From the NCBI GenBank assembly GCA_943908365.1, contig CALTTH010000003.1, positions 16,875 to 80,874 on the forward strand: DNA of 64,000 bases, written 5' to 3'. The notes beneath the pieces are model-generated. The model did no database searches and was not told the origin of the DNA. It saw nothing but the letters and a program-made list of their open reading frames with translations. Shown here in pieces: positions 193-42,580 of this stretch (the stretch's first letter is position 1; every line of letters starts with the position of its first letter). The position numbers and the translations under genes were made by a program. This DNA is from an uncultured Hyphomicrobiales bacterium (lineage in GTDB: Bacteria > Pseudomonadota > Alphaproteobacteria > Rhizobiales > Rhizobiaceae).

Positions 193-550
193 GGATGAGT
201 TACCACAGTTGATGCAACGGGCCGAGCAGAACTCGGTCCTCAAAAGATGAAACAGGTTGCGTTGCTGTGTTGTCTGGCGGATCGGCGGCCAGAAGAGCCA
301 CCCGGATTTTCACCGGGTCCTTGTGGATGATTGCTCTATAATCGAGATGTCGACGTGCTGCAACCGGCATCGTTTTGCTGAAACGCTTGAAGCACTATCG
401 CTGTCCGTTAAAGAAGTCCTACTTGGATCTGCTGTTTTTGATCCATCCCGCCAATCGGAAGATAACCCATTTTCTTAAACGAAAAGAGTATCTTATCGTC
501 TAAAACGTGTTTCCAGGGAGGCCACTTGATGGCAGGCGCTGGGGAGCGTG

Positions 551-7838: not shown

Positions 7839-8780
7839 GTGAAGCTTTTGATTACGCGCATTGTTCTGGCGCTTGAGAACTTTCGCCAGTGGCTGAACGC
7901 GACCATTGCGTTCGGCTTTCTGAACATGCTGAAATTGTTGCCGGCCGATCCAGCAATTCACTTCGCAGATCGCCTCGCGCGTAAACTCGGACCCAAGACA
8001 CCGCGTCATAAGCTGATGCTCTTCAACCTCGCTCGCGCCTATCCGGAAAAAACCGAAGACGAGCGTCTGGAGATTGCGCTCGACAGCTGGGGGAACATGG
8101 GGCGTCTCGCCGCCGAATATGTTTTCCTCGACCGCCTGTTCGATTACGACCCGGAGCAGACGAAGCCCGGTCGCATCGAAGTCGTCGGCATCGACAACTT
8201 TCTGGAGCTGCGCGACAATCCGCGTCCATTCATCGTCTTTACGGCCCATACCGGAAACTTCGAGCTTCTGCCTGTGGCGGGATCCGCTTTCGGCCTAGAT
8301 GTGACGGTGCTGTTCCGCCCACCGAACAATCCTTACGTGGCAGAGAAGATCTATAATTTCCGCAAGGAGCGCATGGGCAAGCTCGTTCCCTCGCATGCGG
8401 GCTCGTCTTTAGCGCTTGCGCGACAGTTGGAGCGTGGTGCGGGCGTCGGCGTGCTTGTCGATCAGAAGTTCCGTAAGGGTCTCCTCACCAAGTTTTTCGG
8501 ACATAATGTCCAGACTAATCCTCTGCTTGCCAAGCTAGTGCGCCAATTTGGCTGCGACGTCTATCCGGCAAGATGTATCCGACTTCCTGACAATCGCTAC
8601 CGTCTGGAAATCGAACCCAAGGTCGAGATACCGCTCAACGACAAAGGCAGTGTCGATATCCAAAAGACCGCACAGCTTTTGAACGACAAGGTCGAGAGCT
8701 GGGTGCGCGAGTATCCCGGTCAGTGGCTTTGGTACCACGACCGTTGGCATATCAAGGACCAGGTCAAGACAGACGGTTGA
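7839..8780 (+). CDS. lpxXL: Lipid A very-long-chain-fatty-acid acyltransferase (HtrB/LpxL family)
   Basis: 313-aa LpxL/HtrB-like acyltransferase in the terminal position of the acpXL cluster. Confidence 0.75.
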   Translation: MKLLITRIVLALENFRQWLNATIAFGFLNMLKLLPADPAIHFADRLARKLGPKTPRHKLMLFNLARAYPEKTEDERLEIALDSWGNMGRLAAEYVFLDRLFDYDPEQTKPGRIEVVGIDNFLELRDNPRPFIVFTAHTGNFELLPVAGSAFGLDVTVLFRPPNNPYVAEKIYNFRKERMGKLVPSHAGSSLALARQLERGAGVGVLVDQKFRKGLLTKFFGHNVQTNPLLAKLVRQFGCDVYPARCIRLPDNRYRLEIEPKVEIPLNDKGSVDIQKTAQLLNDKVESWVREYPGQWLWYHDRWHIKDQVKTDG

Positions 8781-9084
8781 AGACTATACGATACATTTTA
8801 ACAACGTTGATCGATCGGTGGGGTATTATTAAACCACACAATATCGGCCGGTTGACGTAATGCGATGATTTAGTCGGCGTGTCGCGAGACAATACCGTGC
8901 TTGTTCTTCCTTACTATTTCTCGGATTTGTAATAACATAGCCGATTGTGATATGGGTGAATGTGCTGGTGTGGTGATCTTGCAACTCCTTACATCATGCT
9001 TTACGGGCACATTGTGCAGATAGTCGCGCGTGCGCCCGGGGAGGATTGGGCAACTGGAATGCCTGCGTCTCGGGAGTGTTTGGG

Positions 9085-9777
9085 TTGAAAAGAAAAATCG
9101 AATTGTTCTGGCAGAACTATGCGGAACTGAAAAGCGCAGTCATTCGCAATGAAGCGCCCAAGGTTGCAGCTCTTGATAAAGAGCTCGAAACTCTGCTCGA
9201 TAGTATCATCGGCAGAAAGAACGCTTCGTCGTCGGAAATTCTCGAACAGTTTCGTTTCGCCATAGACCTCCTGAACGAGGAAGCTGAGGACGTCGGCTGT
9301 GTCCAGCGAAACGCAGATGTCCTGCGCAAGCTTGTCGATCGCTATATCGGCGCTGGGCTGCCACGCGACGGCAGCACTCCGGATGGCGGGGATGCGCTGT
9401 GGGGGCCCTATATCATTCTGGATGAAGACCGGTTGGAAGACCTGGACGATCGCGTCGTCGTCGTGTCTCCCGGTTACCGCATCAACTATACCAACTCCGC
9501 AAATGCCGCATCGCTCCACTCGGATCGCAGTGAGATCATCGGCAAGCATATTGCTGAGTTTGTCGGCATCCATCACTTCCAGCAGGCATTTCGTGCGAAA
9601 CTCGACGCGTGCTTCAAGGGGGAGGCTGAGAAGTATACCTATGCCGAGGACGCCCTTGGGCATACGGTGGTCAAATCTTTCGAGATGTCGCCGTGCTATT
9701 CGCCCTCCTACAAACTCGTTGGCGCTATCGTGGTGGTCAAGGAGTTGGAAGATCGTCGCACACGCGTGGTTGCGTAG
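9085..9777 (+). CDS. PAS-domain protein, paralog 1 (helical N-terminal domain plus C-terminal PAS)
   Basis: C-terminal PAS-like fold (VVVVSPGYRINYTNSANA...VGAIVVVKELEDRR). Start uncertain: the ORF-track 9046 is a TTG; the TTG at 9085 matches the N-terminus of the downstream paralog. Confidence 0.55.
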   Translation: MKRKIELFWQNYAELKSAVIRNEAPKVAALDKELETLLDSIIGRKNASSSEILEQFRFAIDLLNEEAEDVGCVQRNADVLRKLVDRYIGAGLPRDGSTPDGGDALWGPYIILDEDRLEDLDDRVVVVSPGYRINYTNSANAASLHSDRSEIIGKHIAEFVGIHHFQQAFRAKLDACFKGEAEKYTYAEDALGHTVVKSFEMSPCYSPSYKLVGAIVVVKELEDRRTRVVA

Positions 9778-9946
9778 TACGCAAAATGTGCCTCGAATGC
9801 CGCATTGCAGTCCCCATTGCGCTTTTTATCGCGGCACTACTATAAATCGTATATTGACGGCGGCGAAACGCTCGGTACTGGTGTACCGTGGTTGTACGGC
9901 CTGAGTTTGGCCGGGGGATAGTTCCGGTTTTTCGGAGTAAGCGTGG

Positions 9947-10675
9947 ATGGACACTGTGCTCCAGGATTTTTTTCAAGCTTTCGCGATCAAAAGCAGTCAA
10001 TTGCGACACGCCATCAACCAAAATGAGGATGAACTGGTTCAGTTGTTTGACAGGGAGTTCCAGGCGATCGTCAACGATATTCTGGCCTACCAAGCGTCTA
10101 ACCGCGAAGAGCTCTACAGACAATTCCAGTTTCTCTGCACGCTGGTTCGCGACGAAGCAGACGACCGGCTGGCGGTTGTGCGCCGAAGCGTGATGATGTC
10201 CGGGCTGATCGACCGATATTTCGGTGATCACTTAGATTCGTCTGATGTGGATTTGTCTCCGGCAATCGCGCGACCGGCCAAGGCTCCGGCACCAGCCTTT
10301 TACGAGCAGCCGCTTTTCAACGAAGCAATCCTCGATAGTCTGGATGATCAGATCATCGTCGTCACAATCGATTATCGCTATCTTTATACCAATAATGCCT
10401 ACGCAAAGTTGAAGAACCGGACGCGCTTATCGCTGATCGGTTGCCATGTGACCGAGTTCATCGGTGAAGATGAGTTTTTCCTTCAGGCAAAGCCGGCCCT
10501 CGATCGTTGCTTTGCCGGTGAGGAGATCGGATACATTCATCAAGCGCACCGGGAAGGGCAGAGATTCGCCACCCGATGCAGGATGACGCCGCTGCGCGGA
10601 CCCAAGAATCACGTCATGGGTGCCGTTGTGGTGCTAAGGAATGTCGATGAGATGGCGACACTGGAATGTGGTTGA
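9947..10675 (+). CDS. PAS-domain protein, paralog 2
   Basis: Colinear similarity to 9085..9777 (LFWQNYAELKS versus DFFQAFAIKSS; IG.H..EF.G....F.........CF.GE; VVV..EL/VVVL.NV); ATG with a GGAG RBS. Confidence 0.6.
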   Translation: MDTVLQDFFQAFAIKSSQLRHAINQNEDELVQLFDREFQAIVNDILAYQASNREELYRQFQFLCTLVRDEADDRLAVVRRSVMMSGLIDRYFGDHLDSSDVDLSPAIARPAKAPAPAFYEQPLFNEAILDSLDDQIIVVTIDYRYLYTNNAYAKLKNRTRLSLIGCHVTEFIGEDEFFLQAKPALDRCFAGEEIGYIHQAHREGQRFATRCRMTPLRGPKNHVMGAVVVLRNVDEMATLECG

Positions 10676-10708
10676 GAGAGGGCCTTGAGCTCTCGCTTTG
10701 CGTCGTGT

Positions 10709-11512
10709 TTACACGCCGCTGAGCTTACCGATGATCCAACCGAGCGAGTAGGGCGCACTCGTATCCAGAATGAGCCTGGCCGCCATGGCAAGGCAGGATA
10801 TCACCAGCAGCGGGCGAATGATCTTTGCACCATTCCTCATAGCCAGTCTGGACCCGATCTGGGCTCCCAGGAACTGTCCAAAACCCATGACCAGCCCGAG
10901 CTTCCAAAGAATCGCACCATTGAGCGTGAACACTAGGAAGCCACCGAAATTCGAACCCAGGTTCAATAGCTTCGTATGCGCAGTCGCCTTCAGCATGCCG
11001 AAGCCGGCAAGCGCAACGAATGACAGCATATAGAAGGAACCGGCTCCCGGACCGAAAATGCCATCGTAAAAACCGATCAATGGAACCACCGTCAGACCGA
11101 AGACGAACGGCGTGATACGACGGTGGCTGTCAATGTCGCTGAGGTTGGGCTTGAAGGCGAAGTAGATGGCGATGGCGACGAGCAGGAACGGCATGATTGC
11201 CCTCAAAACGTCGGCCGGAACAAAGGACGCGGTAAATGCTCCAGCCATCCCCCCGAGCAGGGCCATCAGCGCCATCGGAAATTGTTCTCTGAGATTGACG
11301 TGGCCTTTACGCGCATAGGCAATGGTTGCCGAAGCGGAGCCGAACTGAGCCTGCAGCTTATTGGTCCCTAGCGCCTCCAGCGGCGGTATGCCCATGATCA
11401 GCATGGCCGGCAGCACGATCAATCCTCCGCCGCCAGCGATAGAATCGACGAAGCCGGCGAAGACGGCAACAAAAAACAGTATGATGAAAAGCTGGAGAGC
11501 GACGTCTTGCAC
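10709..11512 (-). CDS. TSUP (TauE/SafE) family membrane permease
   Basis: Two-repeat polytopic membrane protein with GGGG and PLEALGTNK motifs. The GTG start at 11512 is preferred over the N-terminal extension in the track. Confidence 0.65.
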   Translation of the reverse strand: MQDVALQLFIILFFVAVFAGFVDSIAGGGGLIVLPAMLIMGIPPLEALGTNKLQAQFGSASATIAYARKGHVNLREQFPMALMALLGGMAGAFTASFVPADVLRAIMPFLLVAIAIYFAFKPNLSDIDSHRRITPFVFGLTVVPLIGFYDGIFGPGAGSFYMLSFVALAGFGMLKATAHTKLLNLGSNFGGFLVFTLNGAILWKLGLVMGFGQFLGAQIGSRLAMRNGAKIIRPLLVISCLAMAARLILDTSAPYSLGWIIGKLSGV

Positions 11513-11787
11513 TGGGGAGGAATCCGGAGGGTTTTGCTGGCCGCTTGTGGCACCGAATGCCTTGCCCCGCAACCGCTTTTGCAGGCAAGGCTACAGCATC
11601 GGCCCGAAAATCCGACTCGATTTTCGGAAAGCAAGATGCCTAGATTCAAAAGGTAAAGCGCTGTGCGTCCGATGGGACGCACAGCGCTTTATTGGTCGGA
11701 TGGAAAAGATTGCGCAGCGCGCACAGGAAGCTATTGTGCGCCGAACGCTACCGCGAAGCATGCAGCCCTATTTGAATGAGGACACAT

Positions 11788-16265: not shown

Positions 16266-17855
16266 TTACACGGGAATAGTGTCGATCAATCGGATGCGCC
16301 GCATCGTGGTGACAGGATAATCGTCGTCGAGAAAGCGAGCTGGCGTAAAGTCTGGCTCAAGCAACCGCAACTGATCGATCGCTCGCTCCGCATGCGCCGT
16401 CATCCCCTTTTGAATGTAGAGGGCAACCAGGTAGCGCAACGGTGCGCGGAAGGCGGGTCGCAGAATGAGCGCGGCCTCCGCATGGCCGATGGCTGCATCA
16501 TAGTCACTGACAGCGGCGGCTGACATGCAGCAAAAGAACTCGACGAATGCCCGATGTTCGCCACCTCCGGTCAATTCCAACGCCTTTGTTGCAGACCTGC
16601 GGCTTGCCTTCAACTTGTCGAGAACGAGTTCGGCATTGGACAGGATCGCCAGGTTGATTGGGTTGAGCGGATCAAGCTCAGCGGCCCGCTCAGCGAGCTT
16701 CAGAGATCCGCGGCTGGATCCCCCACCCAGATATTCCAGGTGCGCACCGATACTGAGGATGCCCGGGCTGTTGCCATCCTGGCGCAATGCCTCCTGTACG
16801 AGTTCCGTGGAGGTAATTTCGTCACCCAGGAATGCCGTGCTGCGATGCTGGAATTGCGCCATGTTGCGCAGGAAAGCCCGCCAAGCGACATATTGCGGAC
16901 GAGGATCGTGCTCATAGGCATAGCTCAGATGCCTGTCCGCCTCGGACAGGCTTTGACGGTCGAAGCGGAAGATGAGGTTGCGAGCGTTGCTTGCCAGAAG
17001 CGCTGCGCAGTTCGAAATGGCGAGGTCGTCTTTTCTTTCGCGCAAGGTGATGAGAATGGCCTGAACCAACGTTCCGCACCAATGATGCAACGCCTCTTGC
17101 GAGGAACTCACGAGCTTTTCAGTACGTGAAGCATAGAGCCTGCCGGTCTCCGCATGGCTGATCGTGAAGGTGATATGGCTATGCCGCCCGATCGTCGCGG
17201 TCCGGATTGAGACGGCAAGACCGCTGACAGGCTGACGCGCGACAGCTAGTGATGCATGTGGGATATGGGGAAAGATTTGAAAGTCGTCCAAGTCATGAAG
17301 CGACGCCGTCGTCAGCGTCATCATGCGGGCGTTGATCAACTCGCTCGCCGACTGATTGTCGGAATGAAACTGAAAGAAGATGGCTGGCTTCGGCGGTGCT
17401 GATTGACGCGGCGCCTGAAAAGCGCTGACAAGGGCCTTTTCAGCAAGTGACGACCGAGTATCGCGAATCCATTCCTCGAACTCCGGATCTGGGACGTCGA
17501 TATCGGCGAAGGCGTCCTGCTCGTCGCTCCAATCGCCCGGTGACTCGACAAGGCGGTAACTGACTTTGAACCGTGACGAGTCGAGCGCGACCTTTTCGCG
17601 GTCGGCCTGCAAGATGTCCTGATATGGCCCAAACGCCTTTCGAATTTCGACAAGCGTTTGACGCAGGCTGTCCGAACCCTTTTTGGCGTCGCGATCGCTC
17701 CACAACTTGTCCTGCAGCGATACTCGGCTTCGGGAGTAATGTGGTGCCGACGCCAGAAGAACAAGGAGACCGCGAGCCTTGGCCGATCGCGGACCCCGGT
17801 CGTTCCCATCCGGATCAGCGATCCGGAATCGACCAAAGACGTTTAACGACAGCAT
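16266..17855 (-). CDS. Transcriptional regulator with an N-terminal OmpR/PhoB-type (CadC/SARP-like) winged-helix domain and a C-terminal TPR-like region
   Basis: N-terminus LSLNVFGRFRIADPDG...LLVLLASAPHYSRSRVSLQDKLWSD...LRQTLVEIRKA resembles the trans_reg_C fold; the helical-repeat C-terminus carries LALYIQKG and AERAIDQL motifs. Confidence 0.5.
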   Translation of the reverse strand: MLSLNVFGRFRIADPDGNDRGPRSAKARGLLVLLASAPHYSRSRVSLQDKLWSDRDAKKGSDSLRQTLVEIRKAFGPYQDILQADREKVALDSSRFKVSYRLVESPGDWSDEQDAFADIDVPDPEFEEWIRDTRSSLAEKALVSAFQAPRQSAPPKPAIFFQFHSDNQSASELINARMMTLTTASLHDLDDFQIFPHIPHASLAVARQPVSGLAVSIRTATIGRHSHITFTISHAETGRLYASRTEKLVSSSQEALHHWCGTLVQAILITLRERKDDLAISNCAALLASNARNLIFRFDRQSLSEADRHLSYAYEHDPRPQYVAWRAFLRNMAQFQHRSTAFLGDEITSTELVQEALRQDGNSPGILSIGAHLEYLGGGSSRGSLKLAERAAELDPLNPINLAILSNAELVLDKLKASRRSATKALELTGGGEHRAFVEFFCCMSAAAVSDYDAAIGHAEAALILRPAFRAPLRYLVALYIQKGMTAHAERAIDQLRLLEPDFTPARFLDDDYPVTTMRRIRLIDTIPV

Positions 17856-17902
17856 AGGCGCGCCCTCCGAAGGCAAATCACACCTATGCATATCAGGTCA
17901 TA

Positions 17903-19261
17903 TTAGCGAAGGAAAAGCCTTCCCGTTGGATCCTGTTCATTTTCGTCTGGACGTGCGGTATTGGCATCGGCTGGTGCCATCAGGTGCGCGTCAGCCGGCT
18001 TGAACGGGTAGGGCGTGACATCGGTCGTCGACGCAGCGTGATCGGGGAAATCGGTTTTCACCCAGTTGCGAAATGCCGCAATTCCCTTTGAGACCTGCAG
18101 CACGTAGTCGAGCGACTGCGTGTTCGCGACTGGCGAGTTCGTTCCAATGTTGCGGAAGTAGGCGGCAATGGCCGCGTCGTCGTAAGGGTTGGCTGGCACA
18201 TCAGGCAAAAGTGCTGCCGCTTGAGTCGCTTCCGGCGTATCCGGCAGCACCGCCGTGCCCCAGTCATTGGCACGCTGGTGACAGGTGATACATGCCGAGG
18301 TGGGATTATCGACAGGGCCATTTGCGCGACCGAAGAGTCCCAGGTTCTGGCGGGGAAGGGCGTAGAACATGGAGGCGACATCCGGATTGACCCAACTTTC
18401 TTTCGGCGTTGCTGCCTGCTCCAGATAAGCCCTGGCGTTGAGCCCCGGGTCGCTACCCCAGATCAGCCCGACAGGCACTAATCGCTCATAAGGCATGTTG
18501 CCCGGCTGCATGGCGTTGTACATGAAGGTCCCAAAGAACCAGCCGTTCGGCGAGCGCTTGTCCTTGACCGAAAGGTCCAACTGGAGAAGGCGCATGGTCA
18601 TTACCCCGCCATCCTTCTCCCCGGCGACATCCCATTCTTTCGAGCCCGCAAGATAGGGAACGCTGGAGGGTGTGGCAGTGGTGAACAGCATTTTCGCAGA
18701 CACCGCACCTTCCGCAAATGCAAAATCCCGGGTCTTGGGGAAGGCGGGATCACCCCAGATCTGACCGAAGCCATAGCACGCCACATCATTATAGATGCCG
18801 ACCGCGAAATTGCGCTCCCAGTCCATTTGTAGCGCGTGAAGCTCCTTCGGCCGGGACCATCGCTCGGTCGTCATCCCACGCAGGGGCTCGCGCAACATGA
18901 AGAACCACGGCGCATCACACCACTGCTCTTCCTTATTGTCCTCGATCCGCCAATCCACATCCGGCCGCGCATTGACCTTGATGACGTAGTTGAGGACCGA
19001 CTGCATATAGTCACCTGGATTCTTGAACGGATCGACCGTCAACCACGGGAGCTTGCTGTTGTCTGGCAAGGTCTTGGGAAAATCATAATGGATCTGAAAC
19101 TTGCGATCCGTCTCATGCCCCTTGAGCGGCAGGCTACTGGAACAGTCGAACTTGGCCTTGGCGGCGGCTGCAAAGCTGCTGTCTGCAGGCGCCGGACAGT
19201 CAGCCAACGCGGCGGAGGCCGGGAAGAAAAGAAGAGCGAAACTAAGGAGGCGTGCTTTCAT
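17903..19261 (-). CDS. Secreted hypothetical protein with a C-terminal CxxCH heme-binding motif
   Basis: Sec signal peptide MKARLLSFALLFFPASAALA; a single CITCH motif near residue 375; start at 19261 with a GGAG RBS. It sits immediately upstream of the regulator on the same strand. Confidence 0.55.
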   Translation of the reverse strand: MKARLLSFALLFFPASAALADCPAPADSSFAAAAKAKFDCSSSLPLKGHETDRKFQIHYDFPKTLPDNSKLPWLTVDPFKNPGDYMQSVLNYVIKVNARPDVDWRIEDNKEEQWCDAPWFFMLREPLRGMTTERWSRPKELHALQMDWERNFAVGIYNDVACYGFGQIWGDPAFPKTRDFAFAEGAVSAKMLFTTATPSSVPYLAGSKEWDVAGEKDGGVMTMRLLQLDLSVKDKRSPNGWFFGTFMYNAMQPGNMPYERLVPVGLIWGSDPGLNARAYLEQAATPKESWVNPDVASMFYALPRQNLGLFGRANGPVDNPTSACITCHQRANDWGTAVLPDTPEATQAAALLPDVPANPYDDAAIAAYFRNIGTNSPVANTQSLDYVLQVSKGIAAFRNWVKTDFPDHAASTTDVTPYPFKPADAHLMAPADANTARPDENEQDPTGRLFLR

Positions 19262-19609
19262 CAGTGAGTCTCCAGCAGACGGACGGGAGGTTGATGTAAA
19301 GTGAAGGATTTGGGATTGTAAATACGCAACCTGAAACACGTTAGGCGAGTATTGAGGAGGATTCCGATGATGGCGGGGACGACCAGAATCAGATGTCACA
19401 CCCGCTGGATGGTCTTCAGTAAGAACCAAATGTGCGGCTTCAGACAGGCTTGAAAATGAGGCTCTAAAGTGTCCTGATAGCTGACCGGTTGGTGAGATAG
19501 AACCACGTCAAGCTTTGCCCGAGGCGAGTCTCCATCATGACTCTTCGATGCCGAAAGCCCGAAAAGATAGTCATGATCTCTTAAATAACTGATTTTTATC
19601 GAGAATTAT

Positions 19610-19685
19610 TGGTGAGAGCGCAGGGATTCGAACCCTGGACCTACTGATTAAAAGTCAGTTGCTCTACCGGCTGAGCTACGCTCTC
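19610..19685 (-). tRNA. tRNA-Lys (anticodon UUU)
   Basis: The reverse complement, GAGAGCGTAGCTCAGCCGGTAGAGCAACTGACTTTTAATCAGTAGGTCCAGGGTTCGAATCCCTGCGCTCTCACCA, folds as a cloverleaf with a CTTTTAA anticodon loop and a GGTTCGAATCC T-arm. Confidence 0.85.
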
Positions 19686-34953: not shown

Positions 34954-35286
34954 CGGACCGCTTCGCCTTTTGCTGTTGAGAGTTGGGCACTGAAATCTGT
35001 CAGTAGCCTCAATCTGGCGCCCACCTTCATTCTAGCCTTGTGCTCCCACCGTCGTAATTTAATCCTTTGCTAACCACGCTTGAAGACCCTTTGGAACGGT
35101 TAAGTCATAAAACTGTTTTATGGCGTTAGTTTCAAATCGCATCTTCAAGCCCGGGCATGATGCTCGCAATGGTGACTGCAACCGACCGTGTTTGTCGGTT
35201 CGCGTGACGCAGGGCTGATAAAAAATGTTTCCCTGATCAACGGCGACGCCGCGCCATCCTCGTGCGTGGCATGGGTATATAGAGTT

Positions 35287-37065
35287 ATGTTGGACGAGCA
35301 TGCGCGTATTTCCGCGCTTAAGAATATGCGCTTACTCGATACTATGCCGAGTGAGAATTTCGACCGTATCACGCGGCTGGTGGCAAATTACTTTGGGTTA
35401 CCGATCGCAGCCATTTCTTTGACGGATACGGACCGTCAATGGTTCAAGTCGAAAGTGGGCGTCGAACACAACGAGATACCTCGACACAAGGCGCCCTGTT
35501 CGCAGGTCGCGGAAAACAAGCAGTCTTTGGTCGTGAAGGATCTGCAGAAAGACGACTACTATGCCGACAGTACGCTAGGTCAGGCCGGAATTCGTTTCTA
35601 TTGCGGCGTTCCACTGGTAACACCGGATGGTTACGGCCTTGGTGCACTCTGTGTCTTGGGGATCGAGCCTTTCGAAGTCACAGATGAACAGATGGCGACC
35701 CTCTCCGATCTTGCTGCTATGGTCATGGATCAGATTGAGTTGCACCATTCGATGGGACGGATTGATCCGTCGAGCGGATTGCCGAACCGTCACCAGTTGA
35801 TGAGTGATCTCTCTGACCTTGCTCTTCACGAAAAAGGTTCAGAGCAGATCATCAGCCTGATTGACCTTGCCCAGACAACGCAGTTCGACCGAATGATGCG
35901 CGTCGTCGGCATTTCCTATCTCGATGGTCTGATGACCAAGGTGGCGCGCATTCTAAGGAAGCATCTGGATGGGGGAACATTCGCCTATCATATCGGCCCC
36001 ACGCAATTCGCATTCATTGTCGCCAAGGGTACGAAGGTTGAAGACTATCGACCGTTTCTAGAGCAGATCATGCGTGCGCTTTATAACGAGGTCGAGTTCC
36101 AGATCACCATGACGCCTTCCATCGGCTCCATGGTTTTCCGCCCTGGCGAGACCAGTGCCGAGGAAATTTTACGGTCGTTGCAAAGTGCCGTGCAGGACGC
36201 GCGTATTCATCCATCGAAAATCGCCTTTTTTTGCCCCTCTCTCGATGTGCAACATCAGCGCAACTTCATGATCCAGCGTGAGTTTCCACGGGCGATTGTC
36301 GACGACGCGCAGCTGTCGCTCGTATTTCAGCCGCGGGTGGACGCCGCCAATGGTCTTTTCAAGAGTGCGGAAGTTCTGTTGCGCTGGACCCACCCGGAGC
36401 TCGGGCCAATTTCGCCTGCCGAATTCATTCCGGTTATCGAAGCGTCAGCCTATGCTCGTGAATTGACCATGTGGGTCATCGCGACATCCCTACAGCAACT
36501 TTCCGAATGGAATTACACAGGTTTTCCTATCAAGCTTTCCATCAACCTGTCAGCCACCAATCTTCAGGAGGCCGACTTCTGGGATCGGCTCAGCGTCGAT
36601 CTGGCTCGCTTCGGCGTCGATCACGATCAGATCGAATTCGAAATAACCGAGACGGCGATGATGATGGAAACGAAAGGGTCGCAGGACCTGCTCGAAACGC
36701 TTGCCGCATCGGGCATTCAGCTATCAATTGACGATTTCGGCACTGGTTACAGCAGCCTATCCTATCTGCAAAAGCTGCCGGTCAAAACCGTCAAGATCGA
36801 TCGCAGCTTCATCAACGATATGCAGGAAGGCAATCGAGAGCGCGTCCTCGTTCAGTCCATGATCACGCTCTGCCACTCGCTCGGTTACGAGGTCGTGGCG
36901 GAAGGTGTGGAGACGCGCGAGCAAGCCGAACTGCTGACCGTCATGGGATGCGATGAGCTCCAGGGCTACTGGTTGTCAAAGCCGATTGCTGCGGACGCTC
37001 TTATCCGTTGGATGTCGGAGCGTCACGCTGCCCAGCATTACCGTCTTGAAGCGATCAGCGCCTGA
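35287..37065 (+). CDS. GAF, degenerate GGDEF and EAL domain protein (c-di-GMP phosphodiesterase type)
   Basis: EAL motifs ELEITE...QLSIDDFGTGYSSLSYL...KIDRSF; the GGDEF position reads HIGPTQF; the N-terminal GAF-like domain carries FYCGVPL. Confidence 0.75.
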   Translation: MLDEHARISALKNMRLLDTMPSENFDRITRLVANYFGLPIAAISLTDTDRQWFKSKVGVEHNEIPRHKAPCSQVAENKQSLVVKDLQKDDYYADSTLGQAGIRFYCGVPLVTPDGYGLGALCVLGIEPFEVTDEQMATLSDLAAMVMDQIELHHSMGRIDPSSGLPNRHQLMSDLSDLALHEKGSEQIISLIDLAQTTQFDRMMRVVGISYLDGLMTKVARILRKHLDGGTFAYHIGPTQFAFIVAKGTKVEDYRPFLEQIMRALYNEVEFQITMTPSIGSMVFRPGETSAEEILRSLQSAVQDARIHPSKIAFFCPSLDVQHQRNFMIQREFPRAIVDDAQLSLVFQPRVDAANGLFKSAEVLLRWTHPELGPISPAEFIPVIEASAYARELTMWVIATSLQQLSEWNYTGFPIKLSINLSATNLQEADFWDRLSVDLARFGVDHDQIEFEITETAMMMETKGSQDLLETLAASGIQLSIDDFGTGYSSLSYLQKLPVKTVKIDRSFINDMQEGNRERVLVQSMITLCHSLGYEVVAEGVETREQAELLTVMGCDELQGYWLSKPIAADALIRWMSERHAAQHYRLEAISA

Positions 37066-38815: not shown

Positions 38816-39357
38816 GTCCGTCCCGCCCCGTAACCCGCTTCTCGCCTTTTCCGCCAGGCGATGACCTGGCGTGTTTTCGAAGGTTGTCATACCAAGAAAT
38901 GATTGCAAGGCAATCGAGACATGCCGGCGGAAAAATCCGATCCATTTTAGCGCGCGCTAACCATCCGGTAAGCTTATACCATTAGACAGATCGGCGAGGC
39001 TCCGGAGCGGGTATTGAGTACCGGGCCTCTTCTTCTCATTTCCGTTCATTCCAGGAGAGGAAGGCGTGCCTTCAGCGGTTTTTTCCTCTCTCGAAATTTG
39101 ACAAGAGCCGCATCGCATCCTACCTTGATTTTAGCGATCCGACGCTTTCCCCATGAGAGCCGATGTCGACTTGACCGCGAAGTGCGGACGGGCATCAGTC
39201 TTTTGTGACGGTTACCGCGACGATCCAGCATGATCGACCGGGAGAACGCCTCCATATCTACGAATCGTTCTCTTTTCATGTCTGGCGCCTCAAGGCTTTT
39301 GGCACAGTCCGAACTGGCGGTCGGATCGCTCTCAATTTTTCTCCCTGCAGGTTCTGA

Positions 39358-39882
39358 ATGAGCGAGATATCTCGTGCCGTCCTGGTGCTCGGCGGCGCGC
39401 GCTCGGGCAAGTCCGCTTTTGCTGAACGGCTGGTGCTCTCGTCTGAGGGGGCCGCTCATTACGTGGCGACAGGCCGCGCCTGGGATGAGGAAATGAAATC
39501 TCGTATCGCCAGCCACCGTCTTCAGCGCGGGGATCAATGGATCACGCATGAGGAACCGTTGCATCTGGTGGAGACGTTGGAACGTCTCGATGACGCGTCC
39601 AACACCATCCTCGTTGATTGCTTGACCCTTTGGGTCACGAACCTGATGATGGAAGAGGGGCGGGACGTTGAAGCAGCTTTTCTGCCACTTGTTGAACACG
39701 TGGCGAAAGCCAAAGCGAAGATTGTCTTCGTTTCGAACGAGGTAGGCCTCGGCATCGTGCCCGAGAATCGCATGGCGCGAGACTTTCGCGATCATGCTGG
39801 CCGGCTGCATCAGAGGATCGCCGCTGCTGCCTCGGAAGTCTATTTCATCGCGGCCGGCTTGCCGTTGAAGATGAAAGGGTAG
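39358..39882 (+). CDS. cobU: Adenosylcobinamide kinase / adenosylcobinamide-phosphate guanylyltransferase
   Basis: P-loop [16 protein letters not shown] and CobU/CobP length (174 aa). Confidence 0.85.
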
Positions 39883-40113
39883 GTCGCCCATCGCACGCCC
39901 GGATTTGCCTCGGCGCGGCCCTCCAACTCTTTAAATCTACGCGTCGTGCTGATCCGAAAATCGAGTTCTATTTTCGGGCCTATGCTGTCGTGTCTCTCTG
40001 GGCCTCCCACAAATCCGCCACAGAGGCATCGTGATTTGCTGCGTCTGCATCGTTTTGATGCCGAATGCTTGATGCGATTTTATCCAGTCAAATCGATCCG
40101 GAGCCAGCAGCAC

Positions 40114-40791
40114 ATGTCATCCTCCGTCTTCAAAGCCATTCTCTGCGGCCTAGCCATCTCCATCTCCGGGAAAGCCCTTGCCGCGCAAGCGAGTTGGCCG
40201 GATACACCTGTCGGCCGTCTCGCGGCGCTGGCCACCGTTCAGGATCTGAGCGTCCAGCTGCTCAGCGAGGACAGCGCGACATTGACACTGGAGCATTGGT
40301 GCGCAGACCATAAGCTCGCTGAACCCGCGAAAATCTCGGCGGTCCGCCTCAAGGACATGAAGACAGCACCGGATGAGGTGCGCCACCAATTGAACGTTTC
40401 CGCCTCCGACCCGCTCGGCTACCGGCACGTTTTGCTGAAATGCGGCAATCTGGTGCTTTCGGAAGCGGATAACTGGTATGTGCCGGATCGGTTGACGACG
40501 GACATGAACCAGACGCTGGACACCACGGATACGCCCTTCGGCAAGGTCGTGCTACCACTTCATTTCCAGCGTCACACCAACTCCTCCGAGCTGATCTGGC
40601 AGCCTCTTCCAGAGCAGTGGGAAATGGGACAGGCAATTCCGCCCGGCCACAGCACCGCACTGAATATCCCTCAAACTCTGATCACCAATGAAGCCGTTCT
40701 TACAAAGCCGGATGGGAGCCCGATCAGCTTTGTCATCGAGAACTACAAGGCCGCGCTCCTGAGCTTCCCGCCGCCCGCTATCGCTCGCTGA
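40114..40791 (+). CDS. Periplasmic hypothetical protein (225 aa, signal peptide)
   Basis: Signal peptide MSSSVFKAILCGLAISISGKALAAQA; GGAG RBS; no recognisable family. Confidence 0.5.
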   Translation: MSSSVFKAILCGLAISISGKALAAQASWPDTPVGRLAALATVQDLSVQLLSEDSATLTLEHWCADHKLAEPAKISAVRLKDMKTAPDEVRHQLNVSASDPLGYRHVLLKCGNLVLSEADNWYVPDRLTTDMNQTLDTTDTPFGKVVLPLHFQRHTNSSELIWQPLPEQWEMGQAIPPGHSTALNIPQTLITNEAVLTKPDGSPISFVIENYKAALLSFPPPAIAR

Positions 40792-40827: not shown

Positions 40828-40841
40828 TTGATTTGGATCAA
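40828..40841. promoter_or_regulatory. Perfect FNR/FixK anaerobox TTGATTTGGATCAA upstream of ccoN
   Basis: Exact TTGAT-N4-ATCAA palindrome about 120 nt upstream of the ccoN start. Confidence 0.7.
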
Positions 40842-40957: not shown

Positions 40958-42580
40958 ATGAACTCTACTTTAGGAATAGCGATGGTGGCCGCGGGGGCCT
41001 TCCTCGCGTTGCTCGGGGCGGCCTTCGCTCACGACAATCTCTTTGCCGCCCATATGTGGGTGCTGTTCTTCGTGCTCCTGGTTGGCACGGTCGTGATGCT
41101 GCGCCGCGTCTCCTTCGCGCCTGTCGATCCGGCAGTCCAGGCACGCAGGAAGACCGAATATTTCGATGACGTGATCCGCTATGGCGTAGTCGCCACGGTC
41201 TTCTGGGGCGTGGTCGGTTTTCTGGTGGGCGTGATCGTCGCGCTTCAGCTTGCCTATCCGGACCTGAACATCCAGCCATGGTTCAATTTCGGCCGCGTTC
41301 GTCCGCTGCATACCTCCGCCGTCATTTTCGCCTTTGGTGGAAATGCGCTGATCGCAACCTCCTTTTACGTGGTGCAGCGCACCTGTCGCGCACGCCTGTT
41401 CGGCGGCGACCTCGGCTGGTTCGTCTTCTGGGGCTACAATCTCTTCATCGTCATGGCAGCGACCGGTTACCTGCTCGGCATCACGCAGGGCAGGGAATAT
41501 GCCGAGCCTGAATGGTATGTCGATATCTGGCTCACCATTGTCTGGGTGGCCTATCTGATCACCTTCCTTGGCACCATCTTCGTGCGCAAGGAGCCGCATA
41601 TCTATGTGGCGAACTGGTTCTACCTTTCCTTCATCGTTACCATCGCGATGCTCCACATCGTCAACAATCTGGCGGTGCCGGTGTCGTTCCTCGGCGTGAA
41701 GAGCTATTCGGCCTTCTCGGGCGTCCAGGACGCGTTGACGCAATGGTGGTACGGCCACAATGCCGTCGGCTTCTTCCTGACCGCCGGCTTCCTAGGGATG
41801 ATGTACTACTTCATTCCCAAGCAGGTGAACCGCCCGGTCTATTCCTACCGCCTGTCGATCATCCACTTCTGGGCGCTGATCTTCATGTATATCTGGGCGG
41901 GTCCCCACCACCTGCATTACACGGCACTTCCCGACTGGGCACAGACGCTTGGCATGGTGTTCTCGATCATGCTTTGGATGCCTTCATGGGGCGGTATGAT
42001 CAACGGTCTGATGACGCTCTCTGGCGCATGGGACAAGCTGCGCACCGACCCGATCCTGCGCATGATGATCATGGCCGTTGCCTTCTACGGCATGGCGACC
42101 TTCGAAGGGCCGATGATGTCGATCAAGGCCGTCAATTCTCTCAGCCACTATACGGACTGGACCATCGGCCACGTGCATTCAGGCGCGCTTGGATGGAACG
42201 GCATGATCACCTTCGGCGCGGTCTATTTCCTTGTCCCGAAACTGTGGCATCGCGAACGGCTCTACAGCCTGGTGTTGGTCAACTGGCACTTCTGGCTCGC
42301 CACGCTTGGTATCGTCGTCTACGCCGCTTCCATGTGGGTTGCCGGCATCCAGCAGGGCCTGATGTGGCGTGAGTATGATGCGCAGGGCTTCCTCGTCTAT
42401 TCCTTCGCCGAAACCGTCGCTGCAATGTTCCCATACTATCTGCTGCGCGCGATGGGCGGCCTGCTGTTCCTCAGTGGCGCAATCGTCATGGCCTACAACA
42501 TCACCAGAACCATTCTCGGCCATATGCGCGAAGAGAACACCGGCAAGGCTGCAGCGCCCAAGCTGCAACCGGCAGAGTAA
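40958..42580 (+). CDS. ccoN: cbb3-type cytochrome c oxidase subunit I
   Basis: Twelve or more TM heme-copper oxidase with conserved His ligands; 540 aa. Confidence 0.9.

What the first reader, a model, noticed from the sequence alone, without database searches (positions are those of the whole stretch)
8781..10675. Tandem duplicated PAS-domain proteins flanked by unusually AT-rich spacers, with a conserved His/Cys pair
Two adjacent genes of about 230-240 aa are clear paralogs over their whole length: a helical N-terminal domain followed by a PAS fold. Both keep an IG-x-H-x2-EF-x-G ... CF-x-GE pattern, possibly cofactor or heme/redox ligands. They sit in spacers at 8781..9084 and 9778..9946 whose GC is visibly below the local 57%. 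Neither has an output domain. The locus lies between the lipid A VLCFA cluster and a TSUP permease, in a window otherwise rich in FnrN/FixK microoxic genes. Stand-alone PAS pairs like this are poorly characterised. They could be an oxygen or redox sensor-antagonist pair.
Basis: partly seen in the sequence, partly recalled or inferred. Interest (0 to 1): 0.55.

Follow-up and report, generated by a model that had tools for sequence, protein, structure and literature searches.

The report
Uncharacterised PAS protein pair beside lpxXL

Summary
Gene A (9085-9777, TTG start, 230 aa) and gene B (9947-10675, 242 aa) are homologous along their whole length (E 9e-33). The N-domains alone give E 4e-15 and the PAS domains alone E 7e-22. 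Each protein has a four-helix N-domain with no Pfam or PDB relative, a disordered linker and a C-terminal PAS fold.

Three points need correction.
- The pair is an old duplication, not a recent tandem copy. A-type and B-type never group as sisters (0 of 100 bootstraps).
- Only the first spacer is clearly AT-rich (48% GC). The second has 53%, the same as the genes.
- Most genera carry one copy and A. tumefaciens keeps only A at this locus, so the pair is not an obligate two-part system.

New here: in all 84 loci fetched, plus two more distant ones, the gene lies directly after lpxXL. In other distant relatives it lies divergent from acpXL or directly after a Crp/Fnr regulator gene.

Databases give no function, and the one paper that mentions Atu1592 gives it none. 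My best reading is a ligand- or redox-sensing PAS protein that signals through its N-domain by protein contacts. The "oxygen sensor-antagonist" idea is neither tested nor excluded.

The parts
9085..9777 (+). Gene A: 230-aa A-type protein with a four-helix N-domain, a variable linker and a PAS domain. TTG start.
   Evidence: ORF. The TTG start and RBS are conserved in 12 loci. The exact protein is in public collections as 'PAS domain-containing protein', 230 aa. dN/dS is 0.03-0.05 against close relatives.
9947..10675 (+). Gene B: 242-aa B-type paralogue. N-domain residues 1-92, disordered linker 95-122, PAS 126-232.
   Evidence: ORF. Pfam PAS_4 5.1e-11. AlphaFold2 model with pLDDT 79.9. dN/dS is 0.08-0.16.
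9947..10222 (+). N-terminal four-helix domain of B (helices 4-24, 28-47, 53-69, 74-92), with no known family.
   Evidence: The domain model has pLDDT 90.8 and pTM 0.79. No PDB match is better than E 0.63 and there is no Pfam hit. A profile search finds only 76 relatives among 1.84 billion representatives.
9547..9549 (+). His155 codon of A (IGKHIAEFVG).
9610..9612 (+). Cys176 codon of A (CFKGE).
10445..10447 (+). His167 codon of B, in the loop just before helix E-alpha of the PAS fold.
   Evidence: Invariant in 91 of 91 sequences. Position read from the model's secondary structure.
10508..10510 (+). Cys188 codon of B, at the C-terminal end of PAS helix F-alpha.
   Evidence: Invariant in 91 of 91 sequences. 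It aligns with a Cys of HIF-2alpha PAS-B in the profile match.
8781..9084 (+). lpxXL-A spacer, 304 nt, 48% GC. The first ~115 nt are variable and rich in indels. 8897-9010 is a block conserved within Agrobacterium.
8927..8956 (+). Candidate promoter of A: -35 TTGTAA (8927-8932), 18-nt spacer including the TG motif, extended -10 TGaTATGGG (8948-8956).
   Evidence: The invariant columns of alignment A4 fall on TTG, TG and TA. The sequence was checked. It is below the threshold of the consensus scan, so this is inference only.
9072..9076 (+). Ribosome-binding site GGGAG of A, 8 nt before the TTG start.
9778..9946 (+). A-B spacer, 169 nt here and up to about 620 nt in the A. rubi clade, 53.3% GC.
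9854..9859 (+). Candidate -35 element TTGACG of gene B's own promoter.
   Evidence: TTGAC is invariant in 11 loci although the rest of the spacer varies. The -10 element is ambiguous.
7839..8780 (+). lpxXL (lipid A very-long-chain acyltransferase), the conserved upstream neighbour.
   Evidence: Pfam Lip_A_acyltrans 1.2e-40. It is adjacent in 84 of 84 fetched loci.

Best explanation
A and B are two old paralogues of a Rhizobiaceae-restricted family of small cytoplasmic signalling proteins.

Each has a C-terminal PAS domain, which I take to be the input. Its pocket region carries an invariant His and an invariant Cys, which would bind a small ligand or cofactor or act as a thiol redox switch. 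Each also has an N-terminal four-helix domain, which I take to be the output. It would act by binding a partner protein, not by catalysis or DNA binding.

The gene is a separate transcription unit with its own promoter. [quoted passage not shown] In this Agrobacterium clade both paralogues are retained under purifying selection. They probably have diverged inputs or partners, and could form heterodimers.

Shown: homology, architecture, invariant residues, gene linkage, selection. Inferred: the input and output roles, the promoters, the target pathway.
For: Architecture:
- PAS is the only Pfam or NCBIfam hit.
- AlphaFold2 gives a confident four-helix N-domain (pLDDT 90.8), a disordered linker and a PAS fold.
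- The PAS part matches LOV, DosP and NifL PAS structures at E about 1e-7.
- The N-domain has no PDB or Pfam relative.

N-domain as a portable module:
- It is also found fused to a receiver domain in P0164 (Response_reg 1.9e-17) and, more weakly, as stand-alone proteins of about 100 aa.
- A module that is paired with PAS in one protein and with REC in another looks like the regulated part.

Pocket residues:
- His and Cys are invariant in 91 of 91 orthologues.
- In the best profile match to a solved structure (HIF-2alpha PAS-B, E 5e-4), they fall beside positions that line that domain's cavity (the cavity residues are from my own knowledge of HIF-2alpha).

Linkage:
- The gene lies directly after lpxXL in 84 of 84 fetched loci from four genera, and in L093 and L097.
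- It is divergent from acpXL in Neohoeflea and in another lineage.
- The downstream neighbour changes: TauE, hemerythrin plus fixNOQP, or ETF-QO.

Separate transcription:
- Promoter-like blocks are conserved in front of both A and B.
- RT-PCR in A. fabrum showed that flanking gene Atu1592 is not co-transcribed with lpxXL (PMC11901934).

Real genes:
- dN/dS is 0.03-0.16.
Against: - No experiment of any kind bears on function, ligand or partner.
- The loci were collected through the PAS gene, so the linkage is one-directional. It shows that the PAS gene sits by the cluster, not that every cluster has a PAS gene.
- In S. meliloti 1021 the locus tag next to lpxXL (SMc04268 by my recollection) is SMc04267, annotated as lpsS. 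I did not check adjacency.
- All members lie within one family of bacteria, where linkage by descent is hard to separate from functional linkage.
- Genetic studies of the VLCFA cluster never needed this gene.
- The full-length model has pTM 0.48, so nothing is known about contact between the domains.
- The His is replaced by Pro in one diverged member, P0157.
- Input-output polarity is argued from one REC fusion found in a metagenome.
Confidence: 0.45

Rival explanations
1. Heme-based (or other metal-cofactor) oxygen or redox sensor. His and Cys would be axial ligands of a heme held in the PAS pocket, with a thiolate/imidazole ligand switch on reduction. The protein would feed into the FnrN/FixK microoxic network. 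In this clade one paralogue would antagonise the other.
For: - His and Cys are invariant.
- Distant homologues lie directly after a Crp/Fnr regulator gene, with hemN on the other side.
- In Sinorhizobium and Shinella the next genes are a hemerythrin and fixNOQP.
- fnrN and hemN flank the VLCFA cluster in the window.
- His167 lies just before helix E-alpha. By my own knowledge, the Aer2 class of heme-PAS domains places its heme His in that region.
Against: - There is no His on helix F-alpha, as FixL and DOS have (read from the alignment).
- There is no sequence match to any heme-PAS structure.
- Structural matches do not distinguish heme, flavin and empty PAS domains.
- Anaeroboxes are not enriched in front of the gene, and neither window spacer had one at <=2 mismatches (for lpxXL-A; A-B read by eye).
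- Single-copy genomes and the A-only A. tumefaciens locus argue against an obligate sensor-antagonist pair.
- The Cys position also holds a Cys in HIF-2alpha PAS-B, where it is not a ligand.
Confidence: 0.2
2. Dedicated accessory or regulator of very-long-chain fatty acid lipid A. The PAS pocket would bind a fatty acyl species or acyl-AcpXL intermediate, and the protein would tune the activity or expression of LpxXL or the FabF-XL enzymes.
For: - The gene is linked to the cluster in three different arrangements: after lpxXL, divergent from acpXL, and as the A-B pair after lpxXL.
- The downstream neighbours vary.
- ETF-QO, an enzyme of fatty-acid oxidation electron transfer, is the downstream neighbour in the distant lineages.
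Against: - The gene is not co-transcribed with lpxXL in A. fabrum (PMC11901934).
- Two distant homologues lie next to fnr and hemN, with no cluster gene visible on contigs that are only 2-3 kb long.
- No lipid-binding signature can be tested with these tools.
Confidence: 0.2
3. The position is a historical accident. It would be a generic stand-alone PAS protein whose place beside lpxXL reflects conserved chromosome order in Rhizobiaceae, with a function unrelated to its neighbours.
For: - All named members belong to one bacterial family.
- The gene has its own promoter and a spacer of about 280 nt.
- An IS element sits in the spacer in Ensifer sp. BR816, and the PAS ORF there is still detected.
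Against: Adjacency survives an inversion of the whole cluster (Neohoeflea) and repeated turnover of the downstream neighbour.
Confidence: 0.15

Closest known systems
Short LOV proteins (PpSB1-LOV, PpSB2-LOV, W619_1-LOV)
   Same: These are the best structural matches for the PAS part (Foldseek E about 2e-7, TM-score to target about 0.65). They are also small stand-alone PAS proteins with helical extensions and no enzymatic output, and are thought to signal through protein contacts.
   Different: The flavin-binding motif GXNCRFLQ is absent. The extension here is a separate 92-residue four-helix domain at the N-terminus, joined by a disordered linker, not an N-cap or J-alpha helix.
HIF-2alpha / NPAS3 PAS-B (bHLH-PAS family)
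   Same: This is the best sequence-profile match among solved structures (E 5e-4 and 0.011). A Cys sits at the same place at the end of helix F-alpha. It is a PAS domain with an internal cavity and no obligate cofactor.
   Different: The match is marginal and confined to about 60-80 residues. There is no bHLH domain, the proteins are bacterial, and the architecture differs. This is resemblance only.
Heme-PAS sensors (FixL, DosP/EcDOS, Aer2)
   Same: PAS fold. DosP is among the top structural matches. The genomic surroundings are microoxic (fnrN, hemN, fixNOQP).
   Different: There is no His on helix F-alpha, no kinase, phosphodiesterase or MCP output, and no sequence similarity.
PhyR (N-terminal output domain plus C-terminal receiver)
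   Same: The domain order is comparable: a helical N-terminal module that could bind a partner, followed by a C-terminal input domain. One relative (P0164) has a receiver domain in place of PAS.
   Different: The N-domain has four helices and 92 residues, and no detectable similarity to sigma-factor regions. This is an analogy of logic only and was not tested.

Membership tests
PAS domain superfamily (Pfam PAS_4, PF08448) | Score above the Pfam gathering threshold. | tested here: met
   B scores 43.2 bits and A 23.8 bits against a cutoff of 23.1.
PAS domain superfamily (Pfam PAS_4, PF08448) | Five-stranded antiparallel sheet flanked by helices C-alpha to F-alpha. | tested here: met
   The AlphaFold2 model of B has strands 135-140, 144-148, 194-202, 205-217 and 223-232, and helices 150-155, 160-163, 169-172 and 174-189. 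551 PDB matches have E <= 0.001, and the 50 listed are PAS-type domains (LOV, DosP, NifL, WalK PAS).
LOV (flavin) photosensor PAS | The motif GXNCRFLQ, with the adduct-forming Cys in helix E-alpha. | tested here: not met
   The corresponding stretch is IGCHVTEFIG in B and IGKHIAEFVG in A. Cys166 of B is Arg or Lys in most orthologues.
FixL/DOS-type heme PAS | Proximal His on helix F-alpha. | tested here: not met
   Helix F-alpha of B (174-189, DEFFLQAKPALDRCFA) has no His, and the family consensus has none. A-type proteins have a His at the very start of the helix, but it is not conserved outside that clade.
FixL/DOS-type heme PAS | Bound heme. | not testable with these tools
   This needs spectroscopy of purified protein.
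Aer2-type heme PAS | Heme His on the short E helix, plus a distal Trp on strand I-beta. | tested here: inconclusive
   His167 lies two residues before helix E-alpha. No alignment to Aer2 could be obtained.
Histidine phosphotransfer (Hpt) four-helix bundle, considered for the N-domain | Conserved phospho-accepting His on the second helix. | tested here: not met
   The invariant N-domain residues are F12, A22, Q59, D73, V77, L87 and Y91. None is a His.
acpXL-lpxXL VLCFA gene cluster, as a possible seventh member | Conserved adjacency to the cluster. | tested here: met
   84 of 84 fetched loci, plus L093, L096, L090-92 and L097. Sampling was through the PAS gene only.
acpXL-lpxXL VLCFA gene cluster, as a possible seventh member | Co-transcription with the cluster, or a role in VLCFA lipid A synthesis. 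| tested here: not met
   RT-PCR in A. fabrum C58 found that flanking gene Atu1592 is not co-transcribed (PMC11901934). That Atu1592 is the A-type orthologue is inferred from its position. A biochemical role cannot be tested here.

The most novel reading that the evidence does not exclude
The family would be a previously unrecognised regulator that couples a redox or small-ligand signal to remodelling of the outer membrane's very-long-chain lipid A in Rhizobiaceae. The signal would be read by the invariant His and Cys of the PAS pocket. The output would be a new four-helix protein-binding domain that evolution has also attached to receiver domains. In the clade with both paralogues, A and B would form a heteromeric switch.
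Probability: 0.2. Interest if true: 0.65.

Novelty: new variant of a known kind. Interest (0 to 1): 0.42.

Why it matters
Very-long-chain fatty acid lipid A is needed for envelope robustness, symbiosis and plant infection in rhizobia and agrobacteria. How its synthesis is adjusted to conditions such as the low-oxygen nodule is not understood.

A sensor-like gene that stays attached to the cluster across Rhizobiaceae is an obvious and easily tested candidate. It has been overlooked: the cluster is described in the literature as six genes.

The N-terminal domain also appears to be an undescribed signalling module. It has no Pfam family and no relative in the PDB.

Tried and rejected
- **LOV or flavin sensor:** rejected because the motif is absent.
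- **FixL/DOS-type heme sensor:** rejected because there is no His on helix F-alpha.
- **Hpt-like N-domain:** rejected because there is no conserved His.
- **FnrN/FixK control of the genes:** the anaerobox scan of 84 spacers shows no enrichment.
- **Riboswitch or structured leader:** Rfam finds nothing in the region. RNAalifold finds no conserved pairs in the 140-nt leader of 11 loci.
- **Terminators and strong sigma-70 promoters:** the consensus scan finds none in 8600-10900 apart from one weak site after gene B.
- **Fold search with the N-domain:** nothing significant.
- **Sequence and profile searches of the PDB:** only marginal PAS hits.
- **Literature:** searches for lpxXL or acpXL with PAS, and for Atu1592, SMc04267, RL2811 and neighbouring tags, found only one passing mention of Atu1592.
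- **Context of the stand-alone proteins that resemble the N-domain:** uninformative.
- **Recent tandem duplication:** rejected by the tree.
- **Longer ORF for A starting at 9046:** rejected, because that stretch is not conserved in frame in relatives.
- **A-B heterodimer:** could not be modelled.
Full report
**What is there**

The region holds two same-strand ORFs between lpxXL (7839-8780, Lip_A_acyltrans 1.2e-40) and a convergent TauE/TSUP permease gene (10709-11572, minus strand). Gene B runs 9947-10675 (ATG start, 242 aa). Gene A is listed mechanically from 9046. An alignment of the upstream region from 12 Agrobacterium loci shows that only the TTG at 9085, preceded by GGGAG at 9072-9076, is conserved, and that the stretch 9046-9084 has indels that break the frame. 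NCBI models of the identical protein are 230 aa. The window is from Agrobacterium cavarae or a very close relative: B is 94% and A 97% identical to strain RZME10, locus L005.

- A and B align over their whole length: 29% identity, E 9e-33.
- The N-terminal parts alone give E 4e-15 and the PAS parts alone E 7e-22.
- Pfam and NCBIfam see only a PAS domain.
- AlphaFold2 models B as four helices (3-24, 28-47, 53-69, 74-92), a disordered linker (95-122) and a canonical PAS fold (126-232).
- Modelled alone, the N-domain is confident: pLDDT 90.8, pTM 0.79.
- The His and Cys in IG-x-H-x2-EF-x-G and CF-x-GE (A: H155 and C176; B: H167 and C188) are invariant in 91 of 91 distinct orthologues from four genera.
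- Both genes are under purifying selection. dN/dS is 0.03-0.05 for A and 0.08-0.16 for B, and B accumulates amino-acid changes three to four times faster.

**The spacers**

The lpxXL-A spacer has 48% GC. The A-B spacer has 53.3%, which is no lower than the genes themselves (54.5% and 52.7%). The window average is 57.4%. Across 85 loci the spacer after lpxXL has a median length of 279 nt and 49% GC. This is ordinary promoter-bearing intergenic DNA.

Within Agrobacterium the distal half of the first spacer (about 8897-9010) is conserved. The invariant columns fit a -35 TTGTAA (8927-8932) and an extended -10 TGaTATGGG (8948-8956). In front of B an invariant TTGAC (9854-9858) survives in a spacer that otherwise varies from 169 to about 620 nt. 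These are inferences: the consensus scan does not call them. There is no Rfam hit and no conserved RNA structure in the leader. RT-PCR in A. fabrum C58 showed that Atu1592, the gene flanking the lpxXL end of the cluster, is not co-transcribed with lpxXL (PMC11901934). By position Atu1592 is the A-type orthologue, but I could not check the sequence.

**History of the pair**

- B-type relatives occur in Agrobacterium, Shinella, Sinorhizobium/Ensifer and Rhizobium.
- A-type relatives were found only in Agrobacterium and a few metagenomic lineages.
- In a neighbour-joining tree the A-type sequences form a clade (100/100), the Agrobacterium B-type sequences form another (100/100), and the two are never sisters (0/100).
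- The same order, lpxXL then A-like then B-like, is found in a MAG (L015) and in a metagenomic lineage (L097). In both, the downstream genes are hemerythrin followed by a further '+' gene (confirmed as fixN in L015; unannotated in L097), as in Shinella.
- The duplication is therefore old. One copy has been lost in most genera, and B has been lost at this locus in A. tumefaciens. This argues against an obligate two-protein system, but it also shows that the pair has been kept for a long time in several lineages.

**Gene linkage, the strongest lead**

All 84 loci fetched through the PAS protein have the gene directly downstream of lpxXL on the same strand. The next gene downstream differs: TauE in Agrobacterium, hemerythrin and fixNOQP in Sinorhizobium and Shinella, other genes in Rhizobium.

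More distant full-length homologues came from a profile of the N-domain searched against 1.84 billion representatives. Only 76 hits were found, nearly all of 220-250 aa.
- P0151 again follows lpxXL.
- In Neohoeflea coraliihabitans and in another lineage the gene is divergent from acpXL at the other end of the cluster, and is followed by ETF-QO.
- In two lineages it directly follows a Crp/Fnr regulator gene, with hemN on the far side in the one lineage whose contig reaches that far, and is again followed by ETF-QO.

In the window, fnrN and hemN sit immediately upstream of acpXL. The gene therefore always lives at the border of the fnrN-hemN / VLCFA neighbourhood. The test is one-directional, because loci were found through the PAS gene, and all named members are Rhizobiaceae, so inheritance of gene order cannot be fully separated from functional coupling. 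Anaeroboxes are not enriched in the spacers (13 of 84 against 9.2 +/- 2.6 in shuffles), although the window has clear ones at 1521 and 40828.

**What kind of protein**

The PAS part resembles short LOV proteins, DosP, NifL and WalK PAS domains about equally (Foldseek E about 1e-7). Its best sequence-profile match to a solved structure is HIF-2alpha PAS-B at E 5e-4. In that alignment His167 falls next to, and Cys188 one helical turn from, residues that line the HIF-2alpha cavity. The cavity residues are from my own knowledge of that protein, and the alignment is weak. The LOV motif is absent, and so is a His on helix F-alpha of the FixL/DOS type. His167 lies just before helix E-alpha, roughly where Aer2-type heme PAS domains carry their His. 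That could not be tested.

The N-domain has no significant PDB neighbour (best E 0.63) and no Pfam family. It also occurs fused to a receiver domain in P0164 and perhaps alone in proteins of about 100 aa with weak E-values. The same module sits in front of either a PAS or a REC domain, so I read it as the regulated output part, acting through protein contacts.

**Mechanism and confidence**

Most likely (0.45) this is a cytoplasmic PAS sensor. Its pocket, with the invariant His and Cys, would bind a ligand or cofactor or act as a thiol switch, and would control partner binding by the N-terminal four-helix domain. The target would lie in envelope lipid or respiratory-redox physiology.

The rivals:
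- Fatty-acyl-sensing accessory of VLCFA lipid A synthesis (0.2).
- Linkage that is merely historical (0.15).

The first two rivals are specific versions of the main reading and are not excluded by it. None can be separated without experiments.

**Novelty**

Databases call these proteins only "PAS domain-containing" or "hypothetical". The literature library holds one passing mention of Atu1592. PAS sensors are a known kind. What is new is the architecture, with an undescribed N-terminal domain, the invariant His and Cys, and the conserved attachment to the lpxXL cluster. I rate it a new variant of a known kind, of moderate interest (0.42). It is a good, cheap target for experiment, but nothing yet shows an unusual mechanism.

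Noticed in passing
window 268-323 (-): Rfam sul1 RNA motif (RF03058), 76.8 bits against a gathering score of 36.2, upstream of the fnrN-like gene region.
   Followed up: no
window 16266-17891 (-) and 17903-19429 (-): Two adjacent large ORFs (541 and 508 aa) with no Pfam family at E <= 1e-5. A tRNA gene follows at 19613-19685 (-).
   Followed up: partly
window 40828-40841 and 1521-1534: A perfect FixK/FnrN anaerobox, TTGATTTGGATCAA, lies 130 nt upstream of fixN (40958). A one-mismatch box lies in the overlap of the listed fnrN-like ORF (674-1735, -; probably over-extended at its start) and hemN ORF (from 1592), i.e. their likely divergent promoter region. Two further one-mismatch boxes are at 42113 and 46284.
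   Followed up: partly
window 39046-39891 (-) and 39946-40791 (+): Two divergent ORFs of about 280 aa immediately upstream of fixNOQP have no Pfam family at E <= 1e-5.
   Followed up: no
L082 (Ensifer sp. BR816), between lpxXL (ends 3411) and the PAS gene (6001): The spacer is about 2.6 kb instead of about 280 nt and contains coding-like sequence, probably an insertion element. The PAS ORF is still detected.
   Followed up: no
P0164 / L085 6001-6756 (JGI metagenome 3300002516): The N-terminal four-helix domain of this family is fused to a response-regulator receiver domain in place of PAS (Response_reg 1.9e-17).
   Followed up: partly
L097 5490-6212 (P0157): In another lpxXL-A-B tandem, the second copy is highly diverged and has Pro in place of the otherwise invariant His, but keeps the Cys.
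   Followed up: partly
Start codons: window 9085; L003, L005-L014; Rhizobium and Sinorhizobium loci: A-type genes, and many single-copy orthologues in other genera, begin with TTG after a good RBS. The Agrobacterium B-type genes use an invariant ATG. A conserved weak start codon may limit translation.
   Followed up: partly
P0112 (4665 aa) and P0159 (3945 aa), hits of the N-domain profile: Two giant proteins match the N-domain profile through 50 and 13 short stretches. This is probably helical-repeat similarity, not homology.
   Followed up: no
window 35188-37065 (+): A GAF-GGDEF-EAL protein (cyclic-di-GMP turnover) lies between the molybdopterin oxidoreductase gene and the fix cluster.
   Followed up: no
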